From Azolla caroliniana (lineage: Eukaryota > Plantae > Polypodiophyta): a stretch of 64,000 nt of DNA. The DNA is taken from assembly GCA_043228905.1 (NCBI GenBank), contig JBHGNT010000010.1, positions 21,576,001 to 21,640,000 of the forward strand. The letters run 5' to 3'. Position numbers and translations under genes: made by a program. The notes below the pieces were generated by a model. That model ran no database searches. It was not told where the DNA came from and saw nothing but the letters and a program-made list of their open reading frames with translations. This document shows, one piece after another, positions 6,947 to 64,000 of the stretch (the stretch's first letter is position 1; each line of letters opens with the position of its first letter).

Positions 6947-9193
6947 ATGGAAGAATCGTTCGGCGGCATGTTCAAGCTCACCGGCTCCAACTACTCAGTG
7001 TGGAAGTCAAAGATGAGGGATATGCTAGTAGTCAAAGATCTTTGGTTGCCGGTTCAGTTCGGGGACAAGAGACCGGATAAGATTGACGCCACAGTGTGAG
7101 AGGTGATGCACATGAAGAGGACGGCATACATCCGGTGCTTCATTGACATGAGCATGCACAACAACTTCAATGAAGAGAGCAAGGCTCATGAACTCTGGGA
7201 GAAGATCGACATCATGTTCTAGAACAAGAATGCCGTTAATCGGGTTTCGGTATTTCGGAAGCTAGTGAGGCTCCGGTACCAAGACGGGCTCTAGTATGGT
7301 GGAGCACATGAATGCCTTCCAGGGGCTGATGCACCAAGCAACCTTGTTGGAAGTACCTCTCGTCGATGAGTTACTTGCTCTACTCCTGCTCGGTTCCCTC
7401 CCGGATAGCTGGGAGACGTTAGTTGTCACGTTGGGCAACGTTGGGCCGGAAGGAAAACAACTATCCCTAGCAAGAGTCAAGTCAAACTTGCTAGATGAGG
7501 AGGCACGTCGGAAAGACAAGGAGGTGATCTCCGACGCCAAAGCCCTCCTTACCAAATCAGAATGCGGAAGACAAAGGAATCGGAGCCCCCAGAACCGGGA
7601 AAAGTCGGGGACACGCTCAAAGTCAAGGGGGAGGCCCACTTGCTTCTATTACGGGAAGCCGGGGCACATCCAGAAGAACTGTCGGCATTTCTGGAAAGAC
7701 AAGGGAATTGATAGTACCGATTCGAAGAAGTCACCGGAGTGAAACGGTTTGGATCGGCGAGGCCCGGATCGGAAGGGAACGACGGCGATCACGACAAGTG
7801 AAGAAGAACTAATGCTCATCACCAAGGAGAATGAGTTGAACCTGGTAGTCGACGAGACAACATGGGTTGTCGATTCCGGACCGTCGTTCCACCTTACCCC
7901 GGACCGAAAATGGTTCTCATCCTACACATCCAGTGAGCACGACTGTGTCCGGATGGGGAATGAAGGGACATGCCGAATTATCGGCATAAGGGATGTGCTG
8001 TTGACGACATCAACTGGATGCAAGTTGCTGCTGAAGGATGTCTGACACGTTTCGGAGGTTCGACTGAACCTGATATCAGTTGGTCGGCTAGATGATGAAG
8101 GCTACATAGGTAGCATTCGGAAGGTCAACACATTGTACTTGATGAATGCCCAGATATGCCGGGAAGAAGTGAACGTAGCATCCGACACTGCCGGTGAGCT
8201 GTGGCACAAAAGACTGTGTCACATGAGTGAGAAGGGGATGAAGAGGCTTGATGAAGACAACCTCATTCCGGTGAAGGACGTGCAACTTGAGAAGTGCACC
8301 GACTGCCTGGCCGGCAAGCAAAACCGCATCTCCTTCCGGTCAAGAACACCGATGAGACGGAATGCACCACTGGAGCTGGTGCATACCGATGTGTGTCAAG
8401 TTGACACGAAGTCACATGCTAGATCGTAGTACTTCGTAACGTTCATAAACGACCACAGCCGGAAGCTGTGGGTCTCACTGTTGAAGATGAAGGACCAAGT
8501 GTTATCCGTCTTCAAAGAGCTCCACGCGAGAGTGGAAAGAGAAACCGGCCGGAAGCTGAAGGTGGTTCGAGCAGATAACGGAGGAGAATACCGGGGGTAG
8601 TTCGAGGAGTACTGCCGGTCGAAGGGAATCCGACTCGATTTTACTGTGCCGAAGACGCTGGAACTAAACAGGCTGGACGAAAGGATGAACCGGACCATAA
8701 TGGAGAGAGTCCGGAGCATGCTAGCACATGCCAAGTTACCCAAGAAGTTTTGGGTTGAGGCGTTGACGACGACGACATATGTGATAAACAGATCACCCTC
8801 AATACCCTTGGACGGAGACTCACCGCAGAAATTATGGACCGGTAAGGATGTGTCTTACCGGCATCTGAAGGTGTTCGGGTGTCTCGCATACGTGCATGTA
8901 GGGAAGGACAAGAGAGAAAAGCTGGATCCGAAATCCCGACCATGCATATTCCTTGGATACGACGATGATGAGTTCAGTTACCGGGTGTGGGATCTGGTCG
9001 ATAGAAAGATGTTCCGGAGTCGGGACATAGTTTTCATGGAAGATAGGACCATTGCCGACTGGGAGTCGGAGAAGAAGGTAACGAACTCCGGATCATCCAT
9101 TGAAAACCGGCTTGAGGACAAAAAGATATACCCGGTTGAAAACCGGATGTTAGCCGGTAATCGGATAAAACTCGATGAACCGGCCGGATACCG
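6947..9193 (+). pseudogene. copia gag-protease-integrase
   Basis: NYSVWKSKM, LLLLGSLPDSW, zinc knuckle CFYYGKPGHIQKNC, WVVDSG, LWHKRLCH, integrase core; several in-frame stops. Confidence 0.92.
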
Positions 9194-9873
9194 TGTCGCG
9201 TTGTTACACGCGTGCGTGGAGAACAAGGCGGGACCACTGGGGTCTTGGACCGAGGAATAGGTGAGAAGAGAGGGAGAGAGAGACACGCTCACACACGGAT
9301 AGACAAAGAAGCACGCGGGAACGCAGCTCGATCAACACAAGAGACACAAGTTGGGCAGGAGGTAGAGTATAATAACGCGTATATAAATATATGTATGAAG
9401 ATGACTCGGACGGTTACAGCCGATTAGGTTGGCGAGACGGGTGTCGACGCCTGATCACCCACGCATACAGGGGAGCAAGATGGAGATTCTGCCGGAAGCA
9501 CACGGGCGTTCCACGGAGCAGAATCAGCCACTCGAGAACCTGCGCAAAGAAAGCTTATGGAGAACGACAGAGGAGAAGAGCTCCGTCCTAGTCCGACATC
9601 ACTTGTTCCCCTCTAGCGCGCGATACCCTCTCTCCCCCATTTCCCTCTCTTTTATAGCTCAAGGAGGGAGGCCGTCTTGCCCGTTTACATCACATTAATT
9701 CTCTGTCCTTTCGGACAGAGATACTCCTCGATTCTCCCTATAGAATATTGCTACCTAGGATCTAACCCTTGCGCCTACCTATCTACTTTACGACAAGGGA
9801 CGTGCCCACGTGTAAGGGCCGGTTCACACACATTATACACGGTTTGCGCCTGGGGACGGTTTTCTTCACGACA
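9194..9873 (-). repeat. 3' LTR of element B
   Basis: TGTCG...CGACA; direct repeat of 23070-23759. Confidence 0.95.
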
Positions 9874-9949
9874 TCCGCCCCCACCTAACCGCGCATCCAC
9901 CGGTATGTGCCAAAATTGGGTTCCTATGAGAGAAAACCGATCCTTGCTT

Positions 9950-12073
9950 TTACTCCTCGTTTACCGGTTCAACCTCTGCCTCGGGCCGCTCGTCATCGCT
10001 GTCCATGCCTCCTAGCCCCGGCTCCCCGTCGTGCCGTTTCTTGAACGCTTTGATCCTCTTCCCCGCTACCGGTATCGCCATTCTCGTACCGTCGAGCTCC
10101 GCGAGATGGTACGTCCCATTGGCGTTGGCGCCTGTTACTACATAAGACCCGAACCACCTCCTCGCAAACTTTCGCGTGGCGCTGTGCTGATTGTCGAGAC
10201 TGCTGTCGTAGACTAGCACCCAGTTGCCTTCCTCGATCTTCCTTGGCCTGGACCGGTGTGTTCGGTTGAACCGGGCTTTGTTCCTTATCCGTGCTACTCG
10301 AAGTTTGTCCGCGGCTCGCTCTACGTCCTCCGGCCTCCGCTCGAGGTGTCGAATCCGCGCCGCCAACAGTTCCTCCCGGCTCATCTCATTCCTCCAGTCC
10401 ACCGTGGCCCACGAGGAGATCGTTCGCTCTGTTGGCATGATCGGCCTCTGTCCGAACATCAGCTCGGCCGGCATGAACCCGGTTACCGAACTGTGCGTAG
10501 TCCGGTCCACCCACAAGGCATAAGGTAGTAGCCGTGGCCAATCCCCGACTCGGCCTCCGCACGCCCGTACTAGCGCTTTGACAATTGGCCCATGTCCGCG
10601 CTCCACCTTCCCGTTTGCCTCCGGATTGTACGCTGTGGTGAGCGAAAGTTTGACTCCTAGCCGGTCGAACAACTCTTCGGCTTCTTCTGCGTCCAACTCG
10701 CCACGGTCAGCCACGATCTTCCCTACGCACCCGTATCGGCATACTACGTCCTCAATAAAAAACCGGCACACGGCTGCCGTCGTCTTGTTCTGCTGGGCTC
10801 GGCCTTCAACCTGGTTCGTTAGATCTTCCCGAGCCAGCACCAGATACCTTATCTGTCCTACCCCCATTGGCATCGTCACCAAATCCACCATCCACTTGAA
10901 GTGGATGGTCGGAGGGTAGGTCGGGTGAAGCTCGTCCCGATGTCGGATCATGGAGTGCACCTGACAGCTTTCGCAAGTCCTCACGAACCGATGCACGTCC
11001 CGGTATAGTCCCGGCCACCAGTACTTCCCCTTTAGCTTTTCGAACGTGGCCCACGTTCCACGGTGTCCAGCCCACGGGCTATCGTGGTACGCCGCCAGCA
11101 AATCCTCTTGTTCCCCCTTCTTCGCCACCACTCGGAGCGGGATGCCGTTCCTCTTCTTCGGGTGCTTCCAGATGTATCCATCCCGGAGAAAGAATCGGTA
11201 GGCTTTCTTCCGAATCCGGTTGGCCTCGTCCGTTGTCCATGCTGCGTCCGGTGTCATTGTGTTCAGGAACCCGCCGATCTGCAGCCACTCCTCGTTGTAC
11301 TTGCTCTCGTCGAAGTCGTTAAGCGTTGGAGAGCATTCCCCGTTGGTTGTCATGTAAGCCGCCTTGAAGAAGTCCATGCCGACTTCCTCGTCCTCTGAAA
11401 CCATGCCGCCGTCGTTTTCGAACCTCGCCCTTGAAAGCATGTCGGCCATGGCGTTCTCTTTCCCAGAAATGTGTCGTATTTCCGGATTCAGGGACTTGAT
11501 GTACGCTATCCACCTGAGCATTGCCAGGTCCGGTGTCGCGCATCCGGAAACCATGCCAAGAATTGGCAGGCAGTCCGTCTCGATAAATACCTCTGCCCCG
11601 ATCAGGTAGTCATTGTCGGCCTTTACCACCGAAACGATACCCCAGAGCTCGCGTTTAACCTGGGCGTATCCTCGCTGTCGCTCATTGAGGACCTTCACGC
11701 CAAACCGGATCGGGGAACGCATGCCGTCCTCGTCCTCCTGGTTGACGACCCATCCGATCCCAGTTGGACTCGTGTCTACCGTTACGTAAATTGGAGTGTC
11801 CTTTCCGTAGACAGCCTTCCGGAGCGCCGGAGCTGCGGCAAGTGCTTCCTTCATCTTTCAGACATACTCCGTATGCCCATCTCTCCACTCGAATTTTCAC
11901 CCCTTTTTTAGCATCTCGTATAACGGCTCCGCGACGTGGGCGTAATGCGGGATCCATATGTGGTAGAACGCGCACGCTCCCAAGAACCTCCGAACCTCCG
12001 TGACCGAGCTGCAATCGTTCTTCATCGCGGAGATGGCTTCTACCTTAGCCGGAGCCGGTTTCCGGCCGTACGG
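9950..12073 (-). pseudogene. pol: RT end, RNase H and integrase of element B
   Basis: ORF 9950-11854: VDTSPTGIG, ETDC, HHCC zinc finger, VADRGE, GKVERGH; no chromodomain. Confidence 0.93.
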
Positions 12074-12773
12074 TGTCGCGTCATTACGCGCTGTCATGAA
12101 GAAAACCGTCCACAAGCGGAATCGGCGCACCGGAGCATAGGAACCGGCTCTTCATGCACGTACGCCTTGTGTTGTACATAGGAGAGAATTAGGGACATGG
12201 GAGATCCTAGGTAGGTAGATTCGGTAGGTAGGAAGTTAATAGGAAACAGCTCCCTTCTTGCCTATAAATGGAGGGAGACGAGGAGGAGGAGAGGTATCGC
12301 GAAGTAAGAGAGGACGAAGTGCTGTCGGATTGTGGGTGAAGGCTTCTCTTTCTCTTCCAAACTCCATAGCTTCTTTCTGCGCAGGTTTCGGGAGGTTCGC
12401 GCTGCTCTGAGGAATGCCCGAGTGCTTCCGGCAGCACCTCCAACCTACTCCTTTCTTTCTGTGTGTTTACGAATAGGCATCAACATTTGTTCGCCGGCCT
12501 GTTCGGTTGTAACCGACTTCGTGTTCTTGTTGTTTGTCTTTGTTAATACATACATACATTCATGTCTATCTATGTCGCTGTCCCACTCGCGTCTTTGTGT
12601 CGAAGGGCCGTGTCCCTGCGAATCTACGCTCGCACGTAGTGGGTTCCCTTCTCCTTTCTCTCTCGCTCTTCGGTACAAGACCTCCGAGGTCCCGCCTCAT
12701 TCCACGCATCCGCGAGGAATACCTCGACATCTTGGTGAACCCGACGTGAAGGAAGGCGGCAGAAGAGCAGAAG

Positions 12774-14891
12774 ATGAAAGGGTCGGATCTTGCGGAGGCC
12801 ATGGCTTCGGCCGTGGATCGGATATTGAGCGCACGCGAGGGCTCCGGCGCCCTCGACAGAGCCATTGAGGCGGTCGTCGGTACGATCGGCCGGTTCAGCG
12901 GAAAGGATGCCACGAAGTATTTGGCGTCCTATGGGGCAGAAATGCTGATGCGGGACATTCCGGAAGAGAGGCGTCTTGCCGGGTTTCCTCGAGTGGCGAT
13001 GCCGAGCATCCATGCGGAGGTGCGGGCGGAGAGCCGTACCTGGGAGGAGTTCGAAGGCCGACTCCTGGAAAAATATGGGCTGGACGACGCGCTCCGGCTT
13101 TCGAAACGAGACTTCATGGAATGGGTGGAGTCCCCCGGCAAGGGAAGAAACGCGTCGGCACTCCTCCGGGAATTCGAAGAACGCTTTGTGCGCCTTTTGG
13201 CGCTTGACCGAACCGTTCTGGATACGAGCCGGGTCCTACTGTTCGTCAAGTCGGTGGACGAGCGGGACCGGGATCAAGTCGGCTCCTTGCTGGAAACCGA
13301 AGACGGGCTGACGACCGACTGGGCTGCGGTTAAGAGAGTCTGTGGCCGTTTCGACAAACGGCGAGAATGGGCTGACAACGGGGCGGCTGGTGCGGGCTCT
13401 GTCACATCAAGGAGGCTTGAACCGGCACCACAAGGACGAAGGGAAGAAACCCGGGAATGGCTCGAAACCGGTCCGGCTTCGACCGGCATGGTCAGTGGCT
13501 CGTCCGGAGGAGCAGCGCTGGAGGAGTTGACGCGAGCGATAAAGGATCTCCAGATCGCCCAGACTCGAAGGGAAGGCGGCGAACCGGCTCGTGACCGACG
13601 GCCGGTAGCAGGGAACAGGTGCATGTGGTGCGACGAGGTCGGCCACATCCGGAAGGACTGCGGCGGTTTCGCAGAAGCGTTGAGGAACCGGGTGGTATAC
13701 CTGTGGGAAGGCCGGGTGCATGCCGGCGACACCAGAAGGGCCCTAAACCGAAACGACGGGCGAGGAGGAATGAAGAGACTGATGGAAGAGGCAGCGGCCC
13801 GACACGTGGAGGCCATCCATTACTCGGCGTCGGCCGACATTCGGGTCGGGGGCAGCGAGGCCCGAAAGGAGGGCAAAGACGGATTTTGGTTAGCAATGCT
13901 GGAAGTTCTTGCCGGCGCACGGCTAAGGAAAGATGAAACAGACCGCGCCGTGAGACGGGTTCGGGAAATAACCGGGTGGAGCGACCTGGTCGAGGAGAAG
14001 ACGGGCTTCGTAGAAGCCGCCTGCCGGAACTACGAGGCTCTGGTAGAAGACAAACGAGTGGGGAAAGCCGGAGCGGCCGGGCCCTCACAACGATACGAGA
14101 CCCGATTCGGGCAACGACGGAACGATGTCGGTGGGTCCAGCGCGCAGGATAACCCCAAGAAGGGCGGATACCGACTAGGGACGAAAATAGAAAGGGCCAC
14201 GGACCTATGAAAGGTCTTAGAAGAACGGATCCTCGACAGCAAAGTGGAGCTGTCATTGCGGGAGGTGCTAGGGATCGCCAAGATGGAGTTCCACGACTCC
14301 ATTGTGGACTTGGTGAAACGGAAGAGGCTGTCGACGGAGACGGAACCGGAAAGACCGGTGGAGGTGTGGACGACGCACATCGATGACTTGGCGCTGGAAG
14401 ATGAGTGGGCGGAGAGCCACTATTCGAGGCCGCACTGGGCCCGAGCGACCACGGAGACCCCGGTAAAGATCGGAGATGTTCAGGAACCGGTGGTGGCACT
14501 GGTGGACCACGGTTCGGAAATAAACCTGATGTCCATGGACTTCTACAAAAAGGGAAAGTGGCCGATCAACACCAAGCACGGGTGGAAGATACGGGCGGCG
14601 ACGCGCGCCACCGAGGAACTGCACGGGGCCTGCCCGAACGTGCGAGTCAAGATCGGCGACGTCGAGATTGACCAGCACTTCTTCGTACAGGAGACGTCCT
14701 CGCACCCGGCCATATTAGGGGAACCATACATCACGGCGGCGCGAATGGAGACCAAGGTGCTGGACAACGGTTCGGCTTACGCAAGGGTCAAAAGCCAGGA
14801 CGAGCGCCATTCGGTCCAATTTCTGACGGTGCGGCCGAACCACGAGCGAAACCGCGAATCCCTCGGTGGCGAGAACCGGGAGGATTTTTAG
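12774..14891 (+). pseudogene. gag: gag-protease ORF of element C (one premature stop at 14208-14210)
   Basis: CMWCDEVGHIRKDC knuckle and ALVDHGSEINL protease motif in the same frame; ends ...REDF*. Confidence 0.92.
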
Positions 14892-17800
14892 AGAGGGCTG
14901 CCAAGGCGTGGGGCCGAGACAGCCCGGACACTCGGGAAAGACCCCACGACTGTACGATAGAACCGAAACCGAAGGAACCCTGTACGATAGGTAGGAAATT
15001 TTGCTTCTCCAACAACGGAGGGTGTATGCTAGTCGGCATCGTTGGCCGAGAAAAGGCAAGGGCGGAAGTGCAACTTCGAGCGAGCGGAGTTCTCGGCCCG
15101 GACGAGGAAATCAGCGGGGCCGTGGAGGCGGTCTCCTTCGACGACACCTTGGGGATGCTGAGGAAGGTAGCCGGAGAAGACCTTAACGAAGACCGGACGA
15201 TACCGGTATGTTCCGAAGAGATGTACGAAGTCATCGCGAACTTCAGCCAGGGGCTCCGGTCGGATCGGACGGCCCGAGTTAGCACGAAGTACAAGACTGT
15301 GGACCGGAAGGTAAGGCCAGTCGCGGCACCCTTACCGGAGGGCAGCGAGTCCCGAATCAGAGGGGTTGCGTCGGACCCCAGTTTACGAGATCGGGCCTGC
15401 ATAGGACACACCTTCACCGACGGGACGCTCCGGGAGCTCAAGATCGGTGGGGGCGGGTTCCTACTGCCGGCGGAGGAAGACCGGTTTCGGAGAATGCTCG
15501 GAAGGCACGGGAAAGCCTTCGCATTTTCACCGGAAGAGATCGGGTGCGTAGACCCGACAATCGTGGAGCCGATGGTGATATTCACGGTACCGCATGTGCC
15601 GTGGAATCTCAAGCCGATTCCGGTACCAAGAGCTCACATCCCGGAGTTGATGGAGCTACTGAGGCAGAAAGTCGAGTGCGCCATACTCAAACCGATGGTT
15701 TACTGTACCAAAGAAAAACGGGACATTGCGCTTCATTCAAGACCTGCAGCCGGTCAACAAAGTGACCATTCGTAACGCAGGGGTCAGACCGACCATAGAC
15801 GAGTTCGCGGAGGCCTTCGCCGGAAGGTCGATTTATTCGGTCGGTGATCTATACTCGGGGTACGACCAGTTCCAGCTAGCCATGGAGAGTAGAGACATTA
15901 CGACGATGCGAACTCCCCTCGGCCTAGTGCGAATGTGTACCCTGCCACGAGGGACCAACTCGGTGGCCCACATGGTGAATGCAATGAACAAGGTACTGAG
16001 GGATTGCATCCCGAACATCACCATGCCATTTCTAGACGACATCCCGATCAAGGGGTGCCCGGTGGAAGAGAAGGACGCAACACTCGGACCGGACGGATGC
16101 CAGCGATTCGTGGCAACACACATCGACAACTGCGAGAAGGTGCTACAAAGGCTAGAGGATGCGAGGCTCACCTTCTCCGAGGAGAAATCGGCCTTCGGGC
16201 AATCGGAAATTTTGGTGGTCGGACACCTATGTGGACCATATGGCCGGCAGCTGTCTCCGGCAAAGGTAGAAGCCATCTCCGCGATGAAGACCGACTGTAG
16301 CTCGGTTACGGAAGTTCGGAGGTTCCTGGGGGCATGCACGTTCTAGCACATATGGATCCCACATTGCGCCCACGTTGCGGAGCCGCTATACGGGTTGCTG
16401 AAGAAAGGGCGAAAATTCGAGTGGCGAGACGAGCACACGGAGTCGGTCCGGAAGCTGAAGGAAGCTCTTGCGGCAGCACCGACGCTCCGGAAGGCTGTCT
16501 ACGAGAAGGGTACCCCGGTATACATAACGGTGGATACGAGTCCGACCGGGATCGGATGGGTCGTCAACCAAGAAAACAAGGACGGCACCCGGTTCCCGAT
16601 CCGATTCGGCGCGAAGGTCCTCAGTGAGCGACAACGAGGGTACGCCCAGGTTAAACGCGAACTCTGGGGTATCGTTTCGGCAGTAAAGGCCGACAAAGAC
16701 TACCTGATCGGGACGGAAGTGATTATCGAGACGGATTGCCTGCCAATTCTCGGCATGGTCTCCGGATGCGCGACACCGGACCTGGCGATGCTCAGGTGGA
16801 TAGCGTACATCAAGTCCCTGGATCCGGAAATACGGCACATTTCTGGAAAGGACAACGCCATGGCCGACATGCTTTCGAGGGCGAGGTTTGATGACGAGGG
16901 CGGCATGGTTTCGGAGGACGAAGAAGTCGGCGTGGACTTCTTCGAGGCGGCGTACGTGACGACCGATGGGACGAGCACTCCGGCACTTAACGACTTCGAC
17001 GAGAGCAAGTACGACGGCGAGTGGCTCCAGATCGATGGATTTTTGAGGACAATGACGTCGGATGCGTCATGGACGAAGGACGAGGCCAACCGGATCCGGA
17101 AGAAAGCTTACCGATTCTTTCTCCGGGACGGATATTTATGGAAGCACCCGAAGAAGAGGAACGGCGTCCCGCTCCGGGTGGTGGCGATGAAGGAAGAACA
17201 GGAGGAGCTGCTGACGGCCTACCACGATAGCCCTTGGGCTGGACACCGTGGAACATGGGCCACGTTCGAGAAGATAAAGGGGAAGTACTGGTGGCCGGGA
17301 CTGTACCGGGACGTGCATCGGTTCGTGACAACTTGCGAGAGCTGTCAGATGCACTCCATAGTCCGGCATCGGGACGAGCTTCACCCTACGTACCCTACGT
17401 ACCCTCCGACCATCCACTTCAAATGGATGGTAGATCTGGTGACGATGCCGATGGGCGTAGGACAAATGCGGTATTTGGTCCTGGCTCGGGAAGATCTGAC
17501 GAACCAGGTGGAAGGCCGAGCCCTTCAGAACAAAACGACCGCGGCCGTATGTCGGTTCCTGATCGAGGACGTGATATGCCGGTATGGGTGCGTCGGGAAG
17601 ATCGTGGCTGATCGCGGGGAGTTGGACGCCGAAGAGGCCGAGGAGCTATTCGACCAGCTAGGAGTCAAGCTCTCGCTTACCACTGCGTACAATCCGGAGG
17701 CGAATGGGAAGGTGGAGCGCGGACACGGACCGATCGTCAAGGCGTTAGTTCGGGCATGCGGAGGTCAAGTCGGGAACTGGCCGCGGCTGCTGCCTTACGC

Positions 17801-18368
17801 GTTGTGGGCGGACCGAACTACGCACAGTTCGGTAACCGGATTCATGCCGGTAGAGCTCATGTTTGGGCAGAAGCCGATCATGTCGATGGAAAGTACGATC
17901 TCCTCATGGGCAACCGTGGCCTGGAGAGATGAGATGAGCCGGGAGGAACTGTTGGCGGCGCGCATACGACAGCTCGAGCGAAGACCGGAGGACGTGGAGC
18001 AGGCTGCGGAAAAGCTTTGGGAAGCAAGGATGAGGAACAAAGCCCGGTTCGACTGAACGCACCGGCTCCGACCGAAGAAGATCGAGGAAGGCGACTGGGT
18101 GCTATTCTACGACAGCAGCCTCGACAACCAGCACCGAGCGACACGAAAGTTCGCAAGAAGGTGGTTCAGGCCTTACATGGTACAAAGCGCCAACGACAAC
18201 GGGACGTACCATCTGGCGGAACTCGACGGCACGAGAATGGCGATACCGGTAGCTGGGAAGCGGATCAAAGCGTTCAAGAAGCGTCACGACAACGAGCCGG
18301 GTCCGGTTAACCTGGACCGGAACGACGAACGATCCAAAACCGAGGAAGAACCGACGGGCAGGGAATGA
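14882..18368 (+). pseudogene. pol: RT-RNase H-integrase ORF of element C (-1 frame relative to gag-PR)
   Basis: ORFs 15026-15775, 15726-16346 (FLDD), 16395-18056 and 18099-18368; one small deletion and two stops. Confidence 0.93.
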
Positions 18369-19363
18369 AGGCTGGACCGGTTTTCTCCGTCCCAACTCAA
18401 TTTGGCGCATGCCGGTGGATGCGCGGTTAGGTGGGGGCGGATGTCGTGAAGAAAACCGTCCACAAGCGGAATCGGCGCACCGGAGCATAGGAACCGGCTC
18501 TTCATGCACGTACGCCTTGTGTTGTACATAGGAGAGAATTAGGGACATGGGAGATCCTAGGTAGGTAGATTCGGTAGGTAGGAAGTTAATAGGAAACGGC
18601 TCCCTTCTTGCCTATAAAAGGAGGGAGACAAGGAGGAGGCGAGGTATCGCGAAGTAAGAGAGGACGAAGTGCTGTCGGATTGTGGGCGAAGGCTTCTCTC
18701 TCTCTTCCAAACTCCATAGCTTCTTTCTGCGCAGGTTTCGGGAGGCTCGCGTTGCTCTGAGGAATGCCCGAGTGCTTCCGGCAGCACCTCCAACCTACTC
18801 CTTTCTTTCTGTGCGTTTACGAACAGGCATCGGCATCTGTTCGCCGGCCTGTTCGGTTGTAACCGACTTCGTGTTCTTGTTGTTTGTCTTTGTTAATACA
18901 TACATACATTCGTGTCTATCTATGTCGCTGTCCCACTCGCGTCTTTGTGTCGAAGGGCCGTGTCCCTGCGAATCTACGCTCGCACGTAGTGGGTTCCCTT
19001 CTCCTTTCTCTCTCGCTCTTCGGTACAAGACCCCCGAGGTCCCGCCTCATTCCACGCATCCGCGAGGAATACCTCGACAGCGCGTGCGTGGAGAAAGGCG
19101 GGACCACGAGAGTCTTGGACTAGGGAGTGACGGAGCGTAGGAGGTCGTGCTTCACCGTTTCCGGGGAGATCCCAGAAGAACACCGGAAGCGACCGAAGGG
19201 AGAGAGAGAAAGAGAGGGAGCGCGCGCTTAACACCGACTCACGCACACACACGCACACACACACACATGCCGACCCGACTCACGCCCTTATGTACAGGAA
19301 ACGCAGGAAAGGGGAAACACCCGATACCAACGGAGACGCGAATATACACAGACAGACGCAACG

Positions 19364-19395
<32 letters not shown>

Positions 19396-19562
19396 GAAGA
19401 ATACATTCCTGGCGTCGAGCCGGACCAAGGTAGGTTACAACAGTCGTCGGCTGCCAAGCCGCCGGTCGGGGAGCTCACGGGCTCGTCGCGCCGAGCGGGG
19501 TCTTGCGCAGGAGACGAGCTGAAGCAAACCCTAAGCAAACACGAAGGGGGTAGAAGAAGAAG

Positions 19563-19593
<31 letters not shown>

Positions 19594-19856
19594 GTAGCTA
19601 ACCCTAAATCTAACGGTATACCCTCTAACGCAAAATGAGCAACCCGTTCACAAAGGGCGCTCCCTTCCTTTTATAGAACAAGGAGAGGGATGCGTTACAA
19701 TGTGGGATAAATCCCGATTTACATGGGATCGTCTGTCCTGACTTGACTACTCTTCGGCACCATAAAGGCGCCCTCGTTATTCACACTAAATGTACATGGG
19801 TGCGTACACACGCTGCACCCCGCCGATGTAGCCAATGTTTCCCGGTTTCCGCCTTT

Positions 19857-20935
19857 GGCAGGGTACACATCCGTACTAGGCCGAGAGGAGTTCGCATTGT
19901 CGTGATGTGTTTGCTCTCTATTGCAAGTTGGAACTGATAGTACCCCGAGGAGAGATCACCGACCGAGTAAATCGACCTTCCAGCGAAGGCCTCCGCGAAC
20001 TCGTCTATTGTCGATCCGATTCCTGCGTTTCGAATAATCACCTTGTTGACCGACTGCAGGTCTTGAATAAAGCGCAGCGTGCCGTCCTTCTTCGGCACGG
20101 TAAACCACCGATTCGAGTATGGGGCACTCGAAGGTTCGAGGATTCCCATCTCGACCTTCTGCTTTAACAGCTCCATCCGCTTCGGGATGTGAGCTCTGGG
20201 TACTGGAATCGGTTTGAGACTCCACGGCACATGCGGTACCGTGAATATCACCATTGGTTCCACGACTGTCGGGTCTACGCACCCGATCTCCTCCGGTGAG
20301 AATGCGAAAGCCTTCCCGTGCCTTCCGAGCATTCCCCGAAACCGGTCTTCCTCCGCCAGCAGTAGGAAGCCGCCCCCACCGACCTTGAGCTCCCGTAGCG
20401 TTATGTCGGTGAACGTGTGTCCTATGCGGGCCGGATTTCGTAAACTCGGGTCCGACGCAACCCCTTTTATTCGCAACTCGCTGCCCTCCAGCAAGGGAGC
20501 CGCGACTGGCCTCGACTTCCGGTCCACAGTCTTGTACCTCGTGTCCACTCGGGCCGTTCGAACCGACTCAAGCCCTCTTCCGAAGTCTGCAATGACTTCG
20601 TACATCTTTTCCGAACATACCGGAATCGTCCGGTCCTCTTTAAGGAATCCTCCAACTACCTCTCATAGCTTCCCCAAGGTATCGTCGAAAGAGACCGCCT
20701 CCACGGCTCCGTTGATTTACTCTCCAAGGCAGAGGATGCCACATGCCCGAAGTCGCTCCTCCGCCCTCTTCTTCTTCCGCCCAACAACGTCAACTATCGT
20801 ACACCCTCCGTTGTCGGAGAACCAAAATTTCCTACTTATAGTACTGGTCTTCTTCGCTATCGTACACTTGTGGGGTTTTCCCGGAGTGTCCGGACTATTG
20901 CGGTCCCACGCCTTGATAGCCCTCTCTAAAAATCC
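19857..20935 (-). pseudogene. pol: N-terminal pol/RT part of element B
   Basis: ORF 19781-20605 (WFTVPKKDGTLRFIQDLQ...MCTLP); about 300 bp of RT missing at the junction with LTR X. Confidence 0.9.
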
Positions 20936-23026: not shown

Positions 23027-23069
23027 CTTCTACTCCTCTGCCGCCTGTTCACGTCGGGTTCACCAAATA

Positions 23070-23759: not shown

Positions 23760-23763
23760 ACGG

Positions 23764-44603: not shown

Positions 44604-44648
<45 letters not shown>

Positions 44649-44815
44649 TCGGTTGCTTCCGGTGTGCTTCTGGGATGCCCCGGAAACGGTGAAGCACGAC
44701 TTCCTACGCTCCATCACTCCCTAGTCCAAGACCCCCGTGGTCCCGCCTTTCTCCACGCACACGCGTAACAACGCGACATATTTGGTGAACCCGACGTGAA
44801 AGGCGGCAAGGGAGG

Positions 44816-54018: not shown

Positions 54019-54099
54019 AAACACGGTGTCGCGTTGTTACGCGCGTGCGTGGAGAACAAGGCGGGACCACTGGGGTCTTGGACTGAGGAATAGGTGAGG

Positions 54100-54130
<31 letters not shown>

Positions 54131-54768
54131 CGCTCACTCACGTATAGACAAAGAAGCGCACGGGGACGCGGCACAACAACACAGGAGACGCGAGTTGAGA
54201 ACACTAGAGTATGTATGTAAACGACTCGAACGGTTACAGTCGATCAGGTCGGCGAGGTGGATGCCGACGCCTGATCACCCACGCACACAGGAGAGCAAGA
54301 TGGAGATTCTGCCGGAAGCACATGGGCGTTCCACGGAGCAGAATCAGCCTCTTGAGAACCTACGCAAAAGAAAGCTATGGAGAACGACAGAGAAGAAGAC
54401 CTCGGTCCTAGTCCGACATCACTTCGTTCCTTCTTGCACGGCCCCCTTCTCTCCCCCATCTCCCTCTCTTTTATAGCTCAAGGAGGGAGGCCATTTCACC
54501 CGTTTACATCACATTAATTCTCTGTCCTTTCGGACAGAGATACTCCTCGATTTCCCTTATAGAATATTGCTACCTAGGATTTAACCTTTGTGCCTACCTA
54601 TCTACTATACGACAAGGGACGTGCCCACGTGTAAGGGCCGGTTCACACACACTATACACGGTTTGCGCCTGGGGACGGTTTTCTTCACGACATCCGCCCC
54701 CACCTAACCGCGCATCCACCGGTATGCACCAAAATTGGGTTCCTACGGGAGAAAACCGATCCTTGCTT

Positions 54769-57700
54769 TTATTCCTCGTTTACCGGTTCATCCACCACCT
54801 CGGGCTGCTCGTCGTCGCTGTCCATGCCCCCTAGCTCCGGCTCCCCGTCGTGCCGTTTCTTGAACGCTTTGATCCTCTTCCCCGCTACCGGTATCGCCAT
54901 TCTCGTACCGTCGAGCTCCGCGAGATGGTACGTCCCATTGGCGTTGGCGCCTGTTACTACATAAGACCCGAACCACCTCCTCGCAAACTTTCACGTGGCG
55001 CTGTGCTGATTGTCGAGACTGCTGTCGTAGACTAGCACCCAGTTGCCTTCCTCGATCTTCCTTGGCCTGGACCGGTGTGTTCGGTCGAACCGGGCTTTGT
55101 TCCTTATCCGCGCTACTCGAAGTTTCTCCGCGGCTCGCTCTACGTCCTCCGACCTCCGCTCGAGCTGTCGAATCCATGCCGCCAACTGTTCCTCCCGGCT
55201 CATCTCATCCCTCCAGTCCACCGTGGCCCACGATGAGATCGTTCGCCCTGTTGGCATGATCGGCTTCTGTCCGAACATCAGCTCAGCCGGCATGAACCCG
55301 GTTACCGAACTGTGCGTAGTCCGGTCCGCCCACAAGGCATAAGGTAGCAGTCGTGGCCAGTCCCCGACTTGGCCTCCGCACGCCCGTACTAGTGCTTTGA
55401 CAATTGGCTCGTGTCCGCACTCCACATTCCCGTTCGCCTCCGAATTGTACGTTGTGGTGAGCGAAAGTTTGACTTCTAGCCGGTCGAACAGCTCTTCGGC
55501 GTCTTCTGCGTCCAACTCACCACGGTCAGCCACGATCTTCCCTACGCACCCGTATCGGCATACTACGTCCTCAATCAAAAATCGGCACACAGTTGCCATC
55601 GTCTTGTTCTGCAGGGCTCGGCCTTCAACCTGGTTCGTTAGATCTTCCCGAGCCAGCACCAGATACCGCATCTGTCCTACCCCCATTGGCATCGTCACCA
55701 AATCCACCATCCACTTGAAGTGGACGGTCGGAGGGTAGGTCGGGTGAAGCTCGTCCCGATGTCAGATCATGAAGTGCACCTGACAGCTTTCGCAAGTCGT
55801 CAAGAACCGATGCACGTCTCGGTATAGTCCCGGCCACCAGTACTTCCCCTTTAGCTTTTCGAACGTGGCCCACGTTCCACGGTGTCCAGCCCACGGGCTA
55901 TCGTGGTACGCCGCCAGCAAATCCTCCTGATCCTCCTTCTTCGCCACCACTCGGACCGGGATGTCGTTCCTCTTCTTCGGGTGCTTCCATATGTATCCGT
56001 CCCGGAGAAAGAATCGGTAGGCTTTCTTCCGAATCTGGTTGGCCTCGTCCGTTGTCCATGTCGCGTCCGGTGTCATTGTTCTCAAGAACCCGCCGATCTG
56101 CAGCCACTCCCCGTCGTACTTGCTCTCGTCGAAATCGTTAAGCGTTGGAGAGCATTCCTTGCCGGTTGTTACGTAAGTCGCCTCGAAGAAGTCCACGCCG
56201 ACTTCCTCATCCTCTGAAACCATGCCGCCGTCATTTTCGAACCTCGCCCTTGAAAGCATGTCAGCCATGGCGTTGTCTTTCCCAGAAATGTGTCGTATTT
56301 CCGGATTCAGGGACTTGATGTACGCTATCCACATGAGCATTGCCAGGTCCGGCGTCACGAATCCGGAAACCATGCCAAGGATCGGTAGGCAGTCAATCTC
56401 GATAATTACCTCTGTCCCGATCAGGTATTCTGTATCGGCCTTTACCGCTGAAACGATACCCCAGAGTTCGCGCTTAACCTGGGCGTATCCTCGCTGTCAC
56501 TCACTGAGGACCTTTGCGTCGAACCGGATCAGGGAACGCATGTCGTCCTCGTCCTCTTGGTTGACGACCCATCCGATCCCGGTCGGACTCGTGTCTACCG
56601 TTACGTAAATTGGAGTGCTCTTTCCATAGACAGCCTTTCGGAGCGCCGGAGCCGCGGCAAGGGCTTCCTTCATCTTCCGGACAGACTCCGTATGCTCGCC
56701 TCTCCACTTGAATTTTCGCCCCTTTTTCAGCAACCCGTATAACGGCTCCACGACGTGAGCGTAATGCAGGATCCATATGTGGTAGAACGCGCACGCCCCC
56801 AAGAACCTCCGAACCTCCATGACCGAGCTGCAGTCGTTCTTCATCCGCAGAGATGGCTTCTACCTTAGCCGGAGACGGTTTCCGGCCGTATGGCCCGCAT
56901 AGGTGTCCGACGACCATGATCTCTGATTGCCCGAAGGCCGACTTTCCCCCGGAGAAGGTGAGCCTCGCGCTCTCCAACCTCTGCAGCACCTTCTCGCAGT
57001 CATCGATGTGCGTCGCCACGAATTTCTGGCACCTGTCCGGTCCGATCGTCTCGTCCCTTTCCTCCACCGCACATCCCTTGATCGGGACGTCGTCCAAAAA
57101 CGGCATGGTGATATCCGGGATACAATCCCTCAGCACTTTGTTCAATGCGTTCACCATGTGAGCCACCGAGTTCGTCCCTCCTTGCGGCAGGGTACACATT
57201 CGTACTAGGCCGAGAGGAGTTCGCATTCTCGTGATGTCCCTGCTCTCTACGGAAAGCTGGAACCGATCATACCCCGAGTAGAGATCACCGACTGAGTAAA
57301 TTGACCTTCCGGCGAAGGCCTCCGCGAACTCGTCTATTGTCGGTCCGATTCCCGCGTTTCGAATGGTCACCTTGTTGACCGGCTGCAGGTCTTGAATAAA
57401 GCGCAGCGTGCCGTCTTTCTTCGGCACGATAAACCACCGATTCGAGTATGGGGCACTTGACGGTTCGAGGATTCCCATCTCGACCTTTTGCTTTAACAGC
57501 TCCATCAGCTTCGGGATGTGAGCTCTGGGTACTGGAATCGGTTTGAGACTCCACGGCACATGCGGTACCGTGAATATCACCATCGGTTCCACGACTGTCG
57601 GGTCTACGCACCCGATCTCCTCCGGTGAGAATGCGAAAGCCTTCCCGTGCCTTCCGAGCATTCCCCGAAAACGATCCTCTTCTGCCAGCAGTAGGAAGCC

Positions 57701-58264
57701 GCCCCCACCGATTTTGAGCTCGCGCAGCATTATGTCCGTGAACGTGTGTCCTATGAGGGCCGGATTTCGTAAACTCGGGTCCATCGCAACCCCCTTTATT
57801 CACAACTCGCTGCCCTCCGGTAAGGGAGCCGCGACTGGCCTCACCTTCCAGTCCACACTCTTGTACCTCGTGTCCACTCGGTTCATCCGATCCGACTCGA
57901 GCCCTCTACTGAAGTCCGTGATGACTTCATACATCTTTTCCGAACATACCGGAATCGTCCGGTCCTCTTTAAGGACTCCTCCGACTACCTCTCGCAGCTC
58001 CCCCAAGGTATCGATGAAAGAAACCGCCTCCACGGCTCCGTTGATTTCCTCTCTAAGGCCGAGGATACCACATGCCCGAAGTTGCTCCTTCGCCCTTTTC
58101 TTCTCCCGGCCAACAACGTCGACTACCGTACACCCTCCGTTGTCAGAGAACCAAAATTTCCTACTTATAGTACAGGTTTTCTTTGCTATCGTACACTTGT
58201 GGCGTTTTCCCGGAGTGTCCGGACTATCGCAGCCCCACGCCTTGATAGCCCTCTTCAAAAATCC
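54769..58264 (-). pseudogene. pol: pol of element D
   Basis: ORFs 57800-58258, 56501-57784 (FLDD), 56497-56844, 55762-56373 and 54991-55710. Confidence 0.93.
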
Positions 58265-60808
58265 TCCCGGCTTTCGCCCCCGAGGGTCTCGCAGTTCCTC
58301 TCATGGTTCGATCTCACCGTCAGGAACTGGACCGAGTGACGCCCATCCTGGCTCTTGACCCTTGCATAGGTCGAGCCGTTGTCCAGCACCTTGGTCTCCA
58401 TCCGTGCTGCCGTGATGTACAGTTCTCCTAGTATAACCGGATGTAAGGACATCTCCTGCACGAAGAAGTGTTGGTCAATCTCGACATCGTCGATCTTTAC
58501 TCGTACGTTCGGGCAGGCTCCATGCAGTTCTTCGGTGGCACGCGTCGCCGCCCGTATTTTCCACCCGTGCTTGGTATTGATCGGCCATTTTCCCTTCTTA
58601 TAGAAGTCCATGGACATCAAATTGATTTCTGAACCATGGTCCACCAACGCCACCACCGGTTCATGAACATCTCCGATCTTCACGGGGGTCTCCGTGGTCG
58701 CTCTGGCCCAGTGCGGCCTCGAATAGTGGCTCTCCGCCAACTCGTCTTCCAGCGCCATGTCCTCTATGTGCGTCGTCCGCACCTCCACCGGCTTCTCCGG
58801 TTCTGTCTCCGTCAACAGCCTCTTCCTCTTCACCAAGTCTACGATGGAGTCGTGGAACTCCTTGGCGATCCCGAGCACTTCCCTCAGCGATAGCTCCACC
58901 TTGCTGTCGAGGATTCGTTCTTCCAGGACCTTTCGCAGGTCCGTGGATCTTTCGATTTCTGTGCCCAGCTGGTACCCGCCCTTCTTGGGATTATCCTGGG
59001 CACCGGTTACAACGGTCTCATTCCGTCTTTGCCCGAATCGAGTTTCATATTGCTGCGAGGGCCCGGCCCCTCCGGTTTTCCCTACCCGCTTGTCCTCTAC
59101 TAGAGCCTCGTAGTTTTGACAAGCGGCTTCGACGAAGCCCGTCTTTTCTTCCACCGAGTCACTCCACCCGGTTACCTCCCAGACCCGTTTTTCCGCGCGG
59201 TCCACCTCTTCTTTCCTCAGCCGTGCACCGGCGTGGCCTTCCAGCATCGTCGGCCAGAACCCGGCTTTGTTCGTCTTCGGGGCCTCGCCACCTCTGACCC
59301 GAATACCAGCTGACACCGAGTAGTGGACAGTCTCCGCGTGACGAGCCGCCGCCTCCTCCATCAGCCTTTTCATACCCCCTCGCCCGACGTTCAGGTTCAG
59401 GGCCCTTTGGGTCTCGCTGGCGTGCACCTGACCGTTCCACAGGTACACCACGTTGCTTCTCATCGCCTCGGCGAAGTCCCCGCAGTCCTTTCGGATGTGC
59501 CCAACCGCGTCACACCACATGCACTTGTTTTCTGCCAGAGGTCGTCGGTCACGGGCCTATTCGCCACCATCCCTCCGTGCCTGGGCGATCTGGAGATCCT
59601 TTACCATCCACGTCAGCTCCTCCAAAGCTGCTCCCCCGGACGAGCCATTGATCATGCCGGTTGAAGGCAACCCAGTCTCGAGCCAATTTCGGGTCTCTTC
59701 CCTTCGCATTGGTGGTGTTGGCTCGAGTTTCCTTGCTATGACAGAGCCCGCCCCTATCGATCCTTTGTCAACCCATTCCCGCCGTTTGTCGAAACAGCCA
59801 CAGACCCTTTTTACCACGGCCCAGTCGGCCGTCAGCCCGTCATCAGTCTCCAATAGGAGGCCTACCTGCTCCCAATCCCGCTCGTCAACCGACTTAACAA
59901 ACAATAGGACACGACTTGTATCCAGAACAGTCCGGTCAAGCACCGAGAGGCACGTGAAGCGTTCCTCAAACTCCCGAAGGAGCACTGACGCGTTCCTTCC
60001 TTTGTCGGGGGTCTCCACCCACTCCATGAAGTCCCGCTTCGAAAGTCGAAGCGCATCTTCAAGCCCGTATCTTTCGAGGAGCCGACCTTCGAACTCCTCC
60101 CAGGTCCAGCTCTCGGCCCGTACCTCGAGCACCTCCGTATGGATACCCGGCATCGCCACTCGAGGGAATCTGGTAGAAGCCTCTCTTCCGGAATGTCCCT
60201 CATTACCATCTCAGCCCGGTAGGACGCCAAGTAGCTCGTGGCATCCTTTTGTCAGGAATAGTACTAAAGCAGAGATGGAATTAGTACTAAGAAGAGTAGT
60301 ACTATTAGTACTAAGAGGACGGGATTGCGTAAGATTCCCGAGAGAGAGGAAGTGAGAAGAGGAGAGAGAGAGAAATAGGATGATGACAGCAGCTCTTATA
60401 TTATATGAAAGATAAGTACAAATCGACTAAGAGGCTTAAGACTGGTGTTGAACCAATTTGGTTCAAAACAATGCCTTGTGCCTCCTTTTATAGTGTTTTT
60501 AGGAATAATCCTGAAGCTTCTAGAATGTTCCAGAGAGATCTGGAATATACATCAATTTTCTATGATAAAGTATAAATGAAAATAATATCCTACAAAATAC
60601 AATTCATAGTCTAATGGTAAGAGCTCGACCCATGTAGCATAAAGTCATGGGTTCGAGTCTTGCCATATCATGACACTTTTCCACTAAACCGGCCGATCGT
60701 ACCGACAACCGCCTCGATAGCCCTATCAAGGGCGCCAGTGCCTTCGCGCACACTCACTATACGGTCTACAGCCGAAGCCATGGCTTCTGCAAGGTCCGAT
60801 CCCCTCAT
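58255..60808 (-). pseudogene. gag: gag-protease of element D, interrupted by a solo LTR
   Basis: ORFs 59557-60159 and 58255-59520 (zinc knuckle and ALVDHGSE in one frame, ending REDF*). Confidence 0.92.
60250..60675 (-). mobile_element. Solo LTR related to the element A family
   Basis: TGTCAGGAATAGTACT...CATGACA homologous to 571-1036; 5-bp TSD CCTTT/CTTTT (one C>T), whose removal restores the gag frame. Confidence 0.92.
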
Positions 60809-60922
60809 ATTCTACTCCTCTGCCGCCTTTTCACGTCGGGTTCACCAAATATGTCGCGTTGTTACGCGCGTGCGTGGAGAACAAGGCGGGACCACTGGGG
60901 TCTTGGACCGAGGAATAGGTGA

Positions 60923-60964
<42 letters not shown>

Positions 60965-61525
60965 GCTCACTCACGTATAGACAAAGAAGCGCACGGGGAT
61001 GCGGCACAACAACACAGGAGACGCGAGTTGAGAACACTAGAGTATGTATGTAAACGACTCGAACGGTTACAGCCGATCAGGTCGGCGAGGTGGATGCCGA
61101 CGCCTGATCACCCACGCACACAGGAGAGCAAGATGGAGATTCTGCCGGAAGCACACGGGCGTTCCACGGAGCAGAATCAGCCTCCTGAGAACTTGCGCAA
61201 AAGAAAGCTATGGAGAACGACAGAGAAGAAGACCTCAGTCCCAGTCCGACAGCACTTTGTTCCTTCTAGCGCGCCCCCCTTCTCTCCCCCGTCTCCCTCT
61301 CTTTTATAGCTCAAGGAGGGAGGCCGTTTCACCCGTTTACATCACATTAATTCTCTGTCCTTTCGGACAGAGATACTCCTCGATTTCCCTTATAGAATAT
61401 TGCTACCTAGGATTTAACCTTTGTGCCTACCTATCTACTATACGACAAGGGACGTGCCCACGTGTAAGGGCCGGTTCACACACACTATACACGGTTTGCG
61501 CCTGGGGACGGTTTTCTTCACGACA

Positions 61526-62103
61526 ACGGGAGCACACAAGAATCACAGTCCAATAACACAGCAAAACGAGATGACTAGAAGTCCGAGTATATGAACACGT
61601 ATGTATATAAATATATATATATATATATATCAAGACGGTTACAATTAACAGGCCGTCAAGGCGAACACCGACGCTTGTTCACTCTCACACAGAAGAGCGA
61701 GATGGAGACTCTGTCGGAAGCACACGGGCGTTCCACGGAGCAGAGTCAGCCTCCCGAAAACCTGCGCAAAATGGCTATGGAGAGTGGCAGAGGAGAAGGG
61801 CTCGGTCCCAGTCCGGCAGCACTTCGTCCTCTCTAAAGCGCGATCCCTTTTCCATTCCTCTCCCTCTCTTTTATAGCCCAAGGAGGCAGGCCGTTATCAT
61901 CCGTTACATCACATTAATTCTCTGTCCTTTCGGACAGAGATACACCTCGATTCTCTCCCTATTGAATGCGTGCTACCTAGGATTTCACCTCAGCTGACTT
62001 GTACCTACCTACTTACTATACAACGAAAAGTGTGCTCGCGTGTAAGGGCCGGTTTACACATGCTAAACTCGGTTTCCGCCTAGGGACGGTTTTCTTCACG
62101 ACA
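61526..62103 (-). repeat. Partial LTR of the Trp-primed lineage (target of element D)
   Basis: Diverged homolog of the B/D LTR ending TTCTTCACGACA; right flank ACGG. Confidence 0.85.
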
Positions 62104-64000
62104 ACGGGGCCACCAAAATGATCGTTGTACTAAATCTAATGTTTTAGTACTACCAAAATGCCCAACTGTATATGTGTCATGACAGTTTTGGACTACTCGA
62201 ATGCGGAAAGAACCATTAGGAACATACAAGAGTTCATTAAAGAATAGTAATCCATCATGCTATTTGAATTGTCGATAGTCCGTACCTGGTGGTTGCGACT
62301 GTGAACAAGATGCTCGAGAGGGATCAATTTGTGCTAGAATGGCTTGGGCGAAAGCATCGGTCTTCAAGTCCTCACGTATAGTATCGATAACGTGGGAATC
62401 CATTGGCATGCCAAAGACCTGTGTTGCTTGCAGTCGTGTCGGTCCCAAGATTACTTGCTTTTGGTTATCAAAAGTTGGCTCACCGGGACGCGGTGCTACG
62501 TACGAACGCCATGATAATGCATCTACCTTCCCTTGGTGCTTCCCCAGACGATATGTAATTTTGAAGTCGAAACGCGTGAGGAAGTGGGCCCACCGAGCTT
62601 GATGTCAATTTAACACACGAACATCCTGCAAGTAGGCAAGGTTTTTGTGGTCACTGAATACGATGACTTGATGAGAGGATCCCTCTAGAAAATGCCTCCA
62701 TTGCGTAAAAGAGTCCACTATTGCCAATAGCTCCTTATCATGAATTTCGTAGTTGATTTCTGCGGCGTCAAACTTGCGTGAGTGAAAAGCCACAGGATGT
62801 AGCTTCTCATCATTACCCCGTTGTGACAGAATGCTCCCCAATGCGAAATCCGATGTGTCTGCTTCGATAATGAATGGTTTTTCTGGATCGACATGAGCTA
62901 GAATTGGAGCCGATGTAAATGCCTTTTTAAGACTCTCGAAAGCCATGTCCGCTTCCTTAGACCAAACAAACGATTGTCCCTTCCTGGTAAGCTGTGTGAG
63001 AGGCAGAACGAGCTTTGAGTAATCTTGTATGAACTTCCGGTAAAAATTGGCAAAGCCTAAAAAGCATTGCACATCTCGCACCAAATGCGGAGTCTGCCAC
63101 TCTACCACAGTTTTGACCTTAGCTGGGTCCATGGAGATGCCTTCTGAGGAAATGACATAGCCTAGAAATTCCACCTGGTTGCACCCAAAACTACATTTTT
63201 CCATCTTTGCATAAAGACCATGTACTCGAAGTCGTTTTAGTACTAACAATACATGAGAATCATGCTCTTCTTGGGTCTTCGAATAAACCAGTAGATCATC
63301 CAAATAGATGATCAAACAAACATCCAAGAGATCTCGGAATATATCATTTGCCATGTGCTGGAAGACTGTTGGCGCATTAGTGAGGCCGAACGGCATGACT
63401 GTATACTCGAAGTGCCCATATTTGGTGAGAAACGCGGTCTTCCATTCATCTCCTGGTCGGATCTGTACGAGGTTATAGGCTCCCCATAAGTCGATCTTTG
63501 TGAAGAACCTGGCACCATTGATCCGTTCTAAAAGACTTGAGATAAGGGGAAGTGCATACCTATTTCTGATTGTCACCTTATTCAAGCCATAGTAATCTAC
63601 AACGAGACGAAGTGATCCATCCTTTTTCTTGACAAAGAAAATGGGTGCGCCGGCTGGAGATTTCGAATGTCGAATGAAACCATTTTCCAAATTCTCCTCT
63701 ATATAGGCTCACAGGACTTCTAGCTCGGTTGGTGACAAATTGTAGATCGGTCCCCATGGTGGCTCTTTCCCCGGTTGTAAATCGATGGGGCAATCATACG
63801 GTCGATGGTGAGGAAGCGTATTGGCTTGTACTTTATCGAACACATCGGCATAATGATGATACTTCTTTGGAAGTTGAATGGTGGACTCTTCTTTAATTGT
63901 GTCTGAGGGCTTTATTGATATTGCGAAGAGAAACATTTCTTCCTTGCGTCCTTCTTCCCGCAACTGATGTAGAGAAATGGTTGCAATCTCATGAGTAGAC
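62104..64000 (-). pseudogene. pol: pol fragment (RT-RNase H-integrase N-terminus) of a second element A-family chromovirus; runs off the window
   Basis: ORF 62605-63690 (YLDD, EADTSDFALG, HDKELLAIV), highly similar to 2295-3955. Confidence 0.93.

What the first reader, a model, noticed from the sequence alone, without database searches (positions are those of the whole stretch)
9190..62107. The tRNA-Trp-primed Ty3/gypsy lineage integrates with a CpG at the centre of its 4-bp target site (8 of 8 insertions)
Seen: the 4 bases abutting every mappable insertion are N-CG-N. B has ACCG/ACGG (9190/23760; the left copy deviates). X has ACGG (12070), C GCGC/GCGC (12088/19080), E GCGT/GTGT (34969/42212), the stub GCGG (43938), H CCGG (43985), D ACGG/ACGG (54023/61526) and the LTR ending 62103 ACGG (62104). 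Three of these sites lie in AT-rich, CpG-poor DNA. The chromovirus insertions here (GGTAA, CCTTT) show no such bias. Established: CG-rich target specificity is known for Drosophila errantiviruses such as ZAM, whereas most plant LTR elements have weak sequence preference. Inference: a chromodomain-less integrase reading CpG, possibly methyl-CpG, would steer the lineage into methylated TE arrays. That would also explain three hits inside its own CG-rich LTRs. Four of the eight sites have only one flank.
Basis: partly seen in the sequence, partly recalled or inferred. Interest (0 to 1): 0.8.

Follow-up and report, generated by a model that had tools for sequence, protein, structure and literature searches.

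The report
Phygy-like retrotransposon inserts at CpG
A family of plant jumping genes inserts almost only at a CG pair across this whole genome, a habit already reported for the moss Phygy group that it likely belongs to, and the data fit an enzyme that likely reads the plain DNA letters rather than seeking out methylated repeats.

Summary
All 39 intact copies with matching 4-bp duplications have CG at the centre (local chance 5%). At least 1,973 of 2,379 outer LTR junctions of the main family read N-CG. It is not new: Neumann et al. 2019 list Phygy, the tRNA-Trp-primed, chromodomain-less Ty3/gypsy clade of the moss Physcomitrella, with a 4-bp NCGN duplication in 186 elements. These elements match Phygy in primer, duplication and domain layout; no labelled Phygy sequence was available for a tree. 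The host is likely a fern. Additions: the motif is VCGB (38 of 39) inside a weak palindrome, and TG/CA centres occur only one-sided, so they are decay and not a general preference for bendable steps. The methyl-CpG steering idea found no support. Insertions land in their own lineage (10 of 64) or in repeats (48 of 64) about as often as random VCGB sites do, and the integrase model has no extra reader domain. Methylation itself was not measured. The scan noted a CpG-centred duplication before in a fungal genome (unchecked).

The parts
9190..9193 (.). B left target copy ACCG (likely mutated from ACGG)
9194..9873 (-). B 3' LTR (PPT ends at 9874)
   Evidence: 3.7% from the 5' LTR
9950..11857 (-). 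B RNase H-integrase ORF, no chromodomain hit
12070..12073 (.). X target copy ACGG, inside B's RT/RNase H region; other flank lost in a deletion
12074..19859 (-). X LTR (12074-12091 and 19084-19859), split by C, 5' end missing; same family as H
12088..12091 (.). C left target copy GCGC, 15-18 nt inside X's LTR end
12092..19079 (+). Element C, 6,988 bp; LTRs 12092-12729 and 18442-19079 (2.5% apart); gag, RT, RNase H, integrase with stops
12733..12749 (+). C primer-binding site, complementary to the 3' end of the genome's own tRNA-Trp(CCA)
19080..19083 (.). C right target copy GCGC
23070..23759 (-). B 5' LTR, tRNA-Trp PBS starting at 23065
23760..23763 (.). B right target copy ACGG
34969..34972 (.). 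E left target copy GCGT
34973..42211 (-). Element E, second family (RT 80% to the main family); LTRs 34973-36112 and 41213-42211, 6.4% apart
42212..42215 (.). E right target copy GTGT (CG to TG decay)
43938..43941 (.). Stub target copy GCGG, single flank
43942..43984 (-). LTR-end stub interrupted by H
43985..43988 (.). H target copy CCGG, single flank
43989..44778 (+). H 5' LTR, PBS at 44783, followed by a gag-like region; short family without pol
54023..54026 (.). D left target copy ACGG
54027..61525 (-). Element D; LTRs 54027-54692 and 60852-61525 (2.6% apart); holds a chromovirus solo LTR at 60250-60675
61526..61529 (.). D right target copy ACGG, inside an LTR of the lineage
61530..62103 (-). 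Host LTR remnant ending at 62103
62104..62107 (.). Target copy ACGG in a chromovirus pol region, single flank

Best explanation
These are non-chromovirus Ty3/gypsy retrotransposons, likely of the Phygy clade, that insert with a CG at the centre of a 4-bp duplication, and their integrase likely picks that site by reading the local DNA letters, not methylation or chromatin. Shown: tRNA-Trp primer site, 4-bp duplication, VCGB target inside a weak palindrome (A/G-C-V-CG-B-G-T/C), no chromodomain, and nesting in own copies at the rate their share of such sites predicts. Inferred: as in 4-bp retroviral intasomes, the integrase bends the target sharply at a central pyrimidine-purine step and avoids T and A at the outer positions; extra base contacts would narrow the central step to CG alone. 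TG or CA centres are inferred to be later deamination of one copy. Short copies without pol use the same target, so they are likely inserted by the same enzyme in trans.
For: 39 of 39 matched duplications have central CG, 38 of 39 VCGB against 47% expected. Genome-wide at least 1,973 of 2,379 and, for a second family group, 1,449 VCGB of 2,077. Of the first 100 V-YR-B junctions listed, 92 CG, 4 TG, 4 CA, 0 TA; no matched pair has TG, CA or TA, and 3 pairs have it on one side only. Half-site bias: C at -1 in 61 of 129 vs 21%, C at -2 in 8 of 129 vs 24%. No excess in own lineage (10 of 64 vs 211 of 1,200, P 0.61), in repeats (48 of 64 vs 791 of 1,200, P 0.13) or in CpG-dense DNA (P 0.78). Integrase model aligns end to end with foamy-virus and Ty3 integrases with no added domain. 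Published: Phygy NCGN, 4 bp, tRNA-Trp; YR centre and T/A avoidance in 4-bp retroviruses.
Against: Methylation of target sites before insertion was not measured, and if most CpGs of this genome are methylated the repeat proxy cannot tell the readings apart. With the first 20 background regions self-insertion looked enriched (9 of 39 vs 8.2%, Fisher P 0.004); it vanished with 40 regions and a block bootstrap, whose interval is wide (7-29%). The last 30 nt of the LTR get 8 hits against 1.6 expected from uniform VCGB use and 4.3 from the full motif (P 0.07). No residue was tied to CG recognition. No labelled Phygy sequence was in the tree. Paired data come from one chromosome and one family group; surviving insertions are filtered by selection.
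Confidence: 0.72

Rival explanations
1. The integrase reads CpG and prefers it methylated, which would steer the lineage into silenced repeats without a chromodomain.
For: The central step is CG and not any flexible step. 48 of 64 flanks are repeat-like, slightly above the 66% expected. One-sided CG to TG/CA decay shows the sites are likely methylated at least after insertion. A 1992 paper title on CpG methylation and retroviral integration appears in a reference list (paper not seen).
Against: No excess in repeats, own lineage or CpG-dense DNA. 16 of 64 flanks match no repeat held, 7 of them at 30-39% GC. No added domain in Pfam or in the model. Animal Ginger1 transposases give CG-centred 4-bp duplications too.
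Confidence: 0.13
2. Sequence reading sets the base pair, and a separate chromatin or regional preference (heterochromatin, or the end of own LTRs) sets the neighbourhood.
For: LTR-end excess of 8 vs 1.6-4.3 expected; dense nesting in this window; Phygy-labelled domains are enriched at centromeres of a liverwort (passage).
Against: Nested hits are spread over LTR, gag and pol (22 mapped); only 19 of 2,379 junctions lie in the LTR-end stretch; no repeat excess.
Confidence: 0.12
3. The CG belongs to the element, or comes from CpG-rich surroundings by chance.
For: Many sites lie in GC-rich repeats.
Against: The 4-mers vary in their outer bases and match between both ends in 39 pairs; LTR ends are fixed by paired LTRs, PBS and PPT; background CG is 3-5%.
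Confidence: 0.01

Closest known systems
Phygy clade, non-chromovirus Ty3/gypsy (Neumann et al. 2019, PMC6317226; passages of the main text and Additional file 5 read)
   Same: 4-bp duplication with NCGN (100% of 186 elements there, 39 of 39 here), tRNA-Trp primer, no chromodomain, no extra RNase H, no extra ORF, coding region filling the interior.
   Different: Defined there as specific to Physcomitrella patens; here the host is likely a fern. Copies are mostly 6.6-7.4 kb against 7.7-10.0 kb. The VCGB rule and flanking palindrome are not stated in the passages read.
Ginger1 DNA transposons (Bao et al. 2010, PMC2836005; passages read)
   Same: Gypsy-like integrase with a 4-bp CG-centred duplication: CCGG 75%, CCGT/ACGG 24%.
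   Different: DNA transposons of animals with terminal inverted repeats; here ACGG/CCGT and ACGT lead and CCGG is 5 of 39.
Retroviruses with 4-bp duplications: PFV, MoMLV (Serrao et al. 2015, PMC4422553; abstract and section 6 read)
   Same: Central pyrimidine-purine step; T and A avoided at the first and last duplicated base; the integrase model's best fold match is PFV integrase.
   Different: Their preference is a moderate enrichment of any YR step; here it is CG in every matched pair.
Drosophila errantiviruses, ZAM subgroup (Nefedova and Kim 2017, PMC5408687; passages and section 5 read)
   Same: Sequence-specific palindromic target containing CG.
   Different: Target given as CGCG; three-ORF insect elements with AGT ends; not close relatives by any search here.

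Membership tests
Phygy | 4-bp target duplication with NCGN | tested here: met
   39 of 39 matched pairs
Phygy | tRNA-Trp primer-binding site | tested here: met
   5 PBS in the window; the complementary end belongs to tRNA-Trp(CCA) in 6 of 6 loci checked of 63
Phygy | No chromodomain, no archaeal-type RNase H, no extra ORF | tested here: met
   A natural full pol ORF shows RT, one RNase H, zinc finger and core only at E up to 0.1; gag and pol ORFs fill the interior; the window's chromovirus does hit Chromo
Phygy | RT/RH/INT phylogeny groups with the P. patens reference elements | tested here: inconclusive
   RT tree of 119 rows puts the elements among Adiantum, Riccia and Calypogeia proteins (65-73% identity) and far from the chromovirus (26%), but holds no labelled Phygy row
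TatI | 4-bp duplication and tRNA-Trp primer | tested here: met
TatI | Archaeal-type RNase H domain (100% of TatI) | tested here: not met
   No second RNase H hit in the full pol ORF
Selgy | tRNA-Ala primer | tested here: not met
   Primer is tRNA-Trp
Chromovirus | Chromodomain at the integrase C-terminus | tested here: not met
Methyl-CpG-reading integrase (proposed) | Prefers methylated over unmethylated CpG | not testable with these tools
   Only proxies, all without excess

The most novel reading that the evidence does not exclude
Phygy-like integrases sense 5-methyl-CpG directly in their catalytic core or SH3-like domain, a chromodomain-free way of aiming a retrotransposon at already silenced DNA, possibly an old trait shared with fungal relatives and Ginger1 transposases.
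Probability: 0.12. Interest if true: 0.72.

Novelty: new member of a known kind. Interest (0 to 1): 0.2.

Why it matters
The target preference is already in print, so the main claim is a rediscovery. What remains useful: the preference appears to hold in a likely fern, far from the moss in which it was noted; it is among the strictest sequence preferences seen for a plant LTR element; and thousands of sites here define the motif well enough to design a clean methylated-versus-unmethylated test. If that test came out positive it would be a new targeting route.

Tried and rejected
Boundary artefact: rejected. General bendable-step preference: rejected, no matched TG/CA/TA centre. Self-targeting: seemed present with 20 background regions, gone with 40. 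LTR-end hot spot: small, mostly explained by the motif. Stub and the LTR ending at 62103 as two ends of one insertion: flanks are not collinear, so counted apart. First structure model used the window's C integrase ORF, which stops before the C-terminal domain, so it was set aside for a natural full-length ORF. Metagenome contigs are short; 5 outer junctions were readable, 4 NCGN and 1 CCAT, too few and of unknown host to weigh. No Physcomitrella-named relative came up. Literature: 9 searches; NCGN with retrotransposon gave only Neumann 2019 as relevant; none of the listed titles reports a methyl-CpG test for Phygy, but most listed papers were seen as listings only and subscription papers are not held. 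Neumann's element table (Additional file 1) was not among the files read and may hold the VCGB detail.
Full report
Observation. The twelve 4-mers are at the stated places. Ten are N-CG-N, one is GTGT and one is ACCG. Every one of the eight insertions has at least one NCGN flank; C and D have exact duplications, B and E differ by one base, and X, the stub, H and the LTR ending at 62103 have one flank only. The product of local CpG frequencies is 3e-11 (post hoc). B's flanks are collinear in a Copia host whose other copies carry G where the left copy has C. The two chromovirus sites are 5 bp, GGTAA/GGTAA and CCTTT/CTTTT.

What the elements are. They have TG...CA LTRs of about 600-830 bp in the main family, a PPT, and a primer site that matches the genome's own tRNA-Trp. 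Pfam shows RT, RNase H, integrase zinc finger and core, with DUF4100 in gag and no chromodomain, while the neighbouring chromovirus does hit Chromo. Named relatives are from Adiantum, Riccia and Calypogeia, with fungal proteins further out. A host desaturase gene has ferns as best named hits at 54-55%, so the host is likely a fern; this rests on one gene.

Genome-wide counts. The 16-nt 5' end of the main family occurs 3,984 times; 1,605 are the internal PPT junction; 1,973 of the remaining 2,379 are followed by N-CG. This 83% is a lower bound, as the denominator keeps internal junctions with a mutated PPT. A second family group gives 1,449 VCGB of 2,077. Background CG frequency is 3.2-3.4%.

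Paired duplications. I fetched 80 regions of contig C1 chosen by PPT-side match or LTR spacing, not by flank. The script called 50 LTR pairs, 17 lone 3' ends, and failed to place the 3' end in 14 cases, which were dropped. Thirty-nine pairs have matching 4-mers and all 39 have central CG against 5.3% locally; 38 of 39 are VCGB against 47%. Of the 11 unmatched pairs, 3 have TG or CA on one side only, 4 differ by one outer base, and 4 differ by 2-4 bases (two are mis-pairings with 9% and 24% LTR divergence). Among 64 outer 3' flanks, 59 are CG, 3 TG, 1 CA, 1 CT. In the first 100 V-YR-B junctions, 92 are CG, 4 TG, 4 CA and none TA. TG and CA are therefore inferred to be decay, not targets. In 129 half-sites, C is favoured at -1 (47% vs 21%) and avoided at -2 (6% vs 24%); the two halves of one insertion share the duplicated bases.

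Is the lineage steered into repeats? With 20 evenly chosen 10-kb background regions, 9 of 39 empty sites lay in the lineage against 8.2% of VCGB sites (P 0.004, sites treated as independent). With 40 regions and a block bootstrap the excess vanished: 10 of 64 against 211 of 1,200 random VCGB sites (P 0.61). Repeat-like flanks were 48 of 64 against 791 of 1,200 (P 0.13), and CpG density was 0.054 in both. The lineage is 8.5% of background bases but 18.6% of VCGB sites. Repeat status was judged against about 1.2 Mb of held sequence only. Nested hits spread along the element. The LTR end is a mild hot spot: 19 of 2,379 junctions; in the subset with a counted host number (2,721) 8 were seen against 1.6 (uniform VCGB) or 4.3 (full motif, P 0.07).

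Integrase. A model of a natural full-length integrase (396 aa, mean pLDDT 84) aligns over about 380 columns with foamy-virus integrase (E 6e-19) and Ty3 integrase, ending in a low-confidence acidic tail. No added reader domain is seen. This does not exclude methyl sensing by the core itself.

Comparison with what is known. Neumann et al. 2019 write that plant duplications are highly variable except for Phygy, which prefers NCGN, and list 186 Phygy elements with 4-bp NCGN, 81% tRNA-Trp and no extra domain. TatI shares primer and duplication length but carries an extra RNase H not found here; Selgy uses tRNA-Ala. The RT tree has no labelled Phygy row, so membership is likely, not shown. Jedlicka et al. 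2019 (PMC6911290, passages) report 4-bp duplications for Phygy and do not list it among self-nesting families. Phygy-labelled elements are also reported from a liverwort (PMC12885004, two passages). Vendrell-Mir et al. 2020 (PMC7466625, passages) gave nothing on the target motif. Serrao et al. 2015 describe a central YR step and avoidance of T and A at the outer duplicated bases for 4-bp retroviruses, which matches the V and B rule. Ginger1 transposons give CCGG and CCGT/ACGG, a lead taken from an earlier scan note.

Mechanism. Shown: the motif, its strictness and the lack of excess in repeats. Inferred: the integrase bends the target at the central step and base contacts restrict it to CG; nesting follows the CG richness of the lineage; one-sided TG/CA is deamination after insertion. 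Untested: any role of methylation.

Verdict. A real, strong pattern that is already published for Phygy, here in a likely new host with a sharper motif. Interest 0.2; the methyl-reading case keeps about 12%.

Noticed in passing
window 43989-47997 (H), 12074-19859 (X); L126 (element of about 4.6 kb): H and X belong to a short family with the same ends, PBS and PPT, a gag-like region about 37% identical to the main gag and no pol; the L126 copy has a matched CCGT duplication. Likely non-autonomous.
   Followed up: partly
window 34955-34972 and 42212-42226: E inserted at the loop of a 13-bp perfect inverted repeat in AT-rich DNA; a similar palindrome lies in L150.
   Followed up: no
L124 and L125 (C1 21.43 and 21.48 Mb): The same nested pair with the same junction occurs twice about 43 kb apart: a local duplication or a co-mobilised nested pair.
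   Followed up: no
L071, L074, L079, L130: Young copies with unmatched duplications or tandem LTR-PBS junctions, likely recombinants between copies.
   Followed up: no
L064:1824-7447: gag-protease and RT-RNase H-integrase lie in two overlapping frames; Neumann's table leaves the Phygy organisation undetermined.
   Followed up: no
G000:C8:17796786-17823371 and C16:4989495-5105657: Clusters of tRNA-Trp-type 3' ends, on C8 spaced about 1.2 kb apart, likely tandem tRNA gene arrays.
   Followed up: no
window 47998-53456: Copia element with 187-bp LTRs between H and the RT fragment left of D.
   Followed up: no
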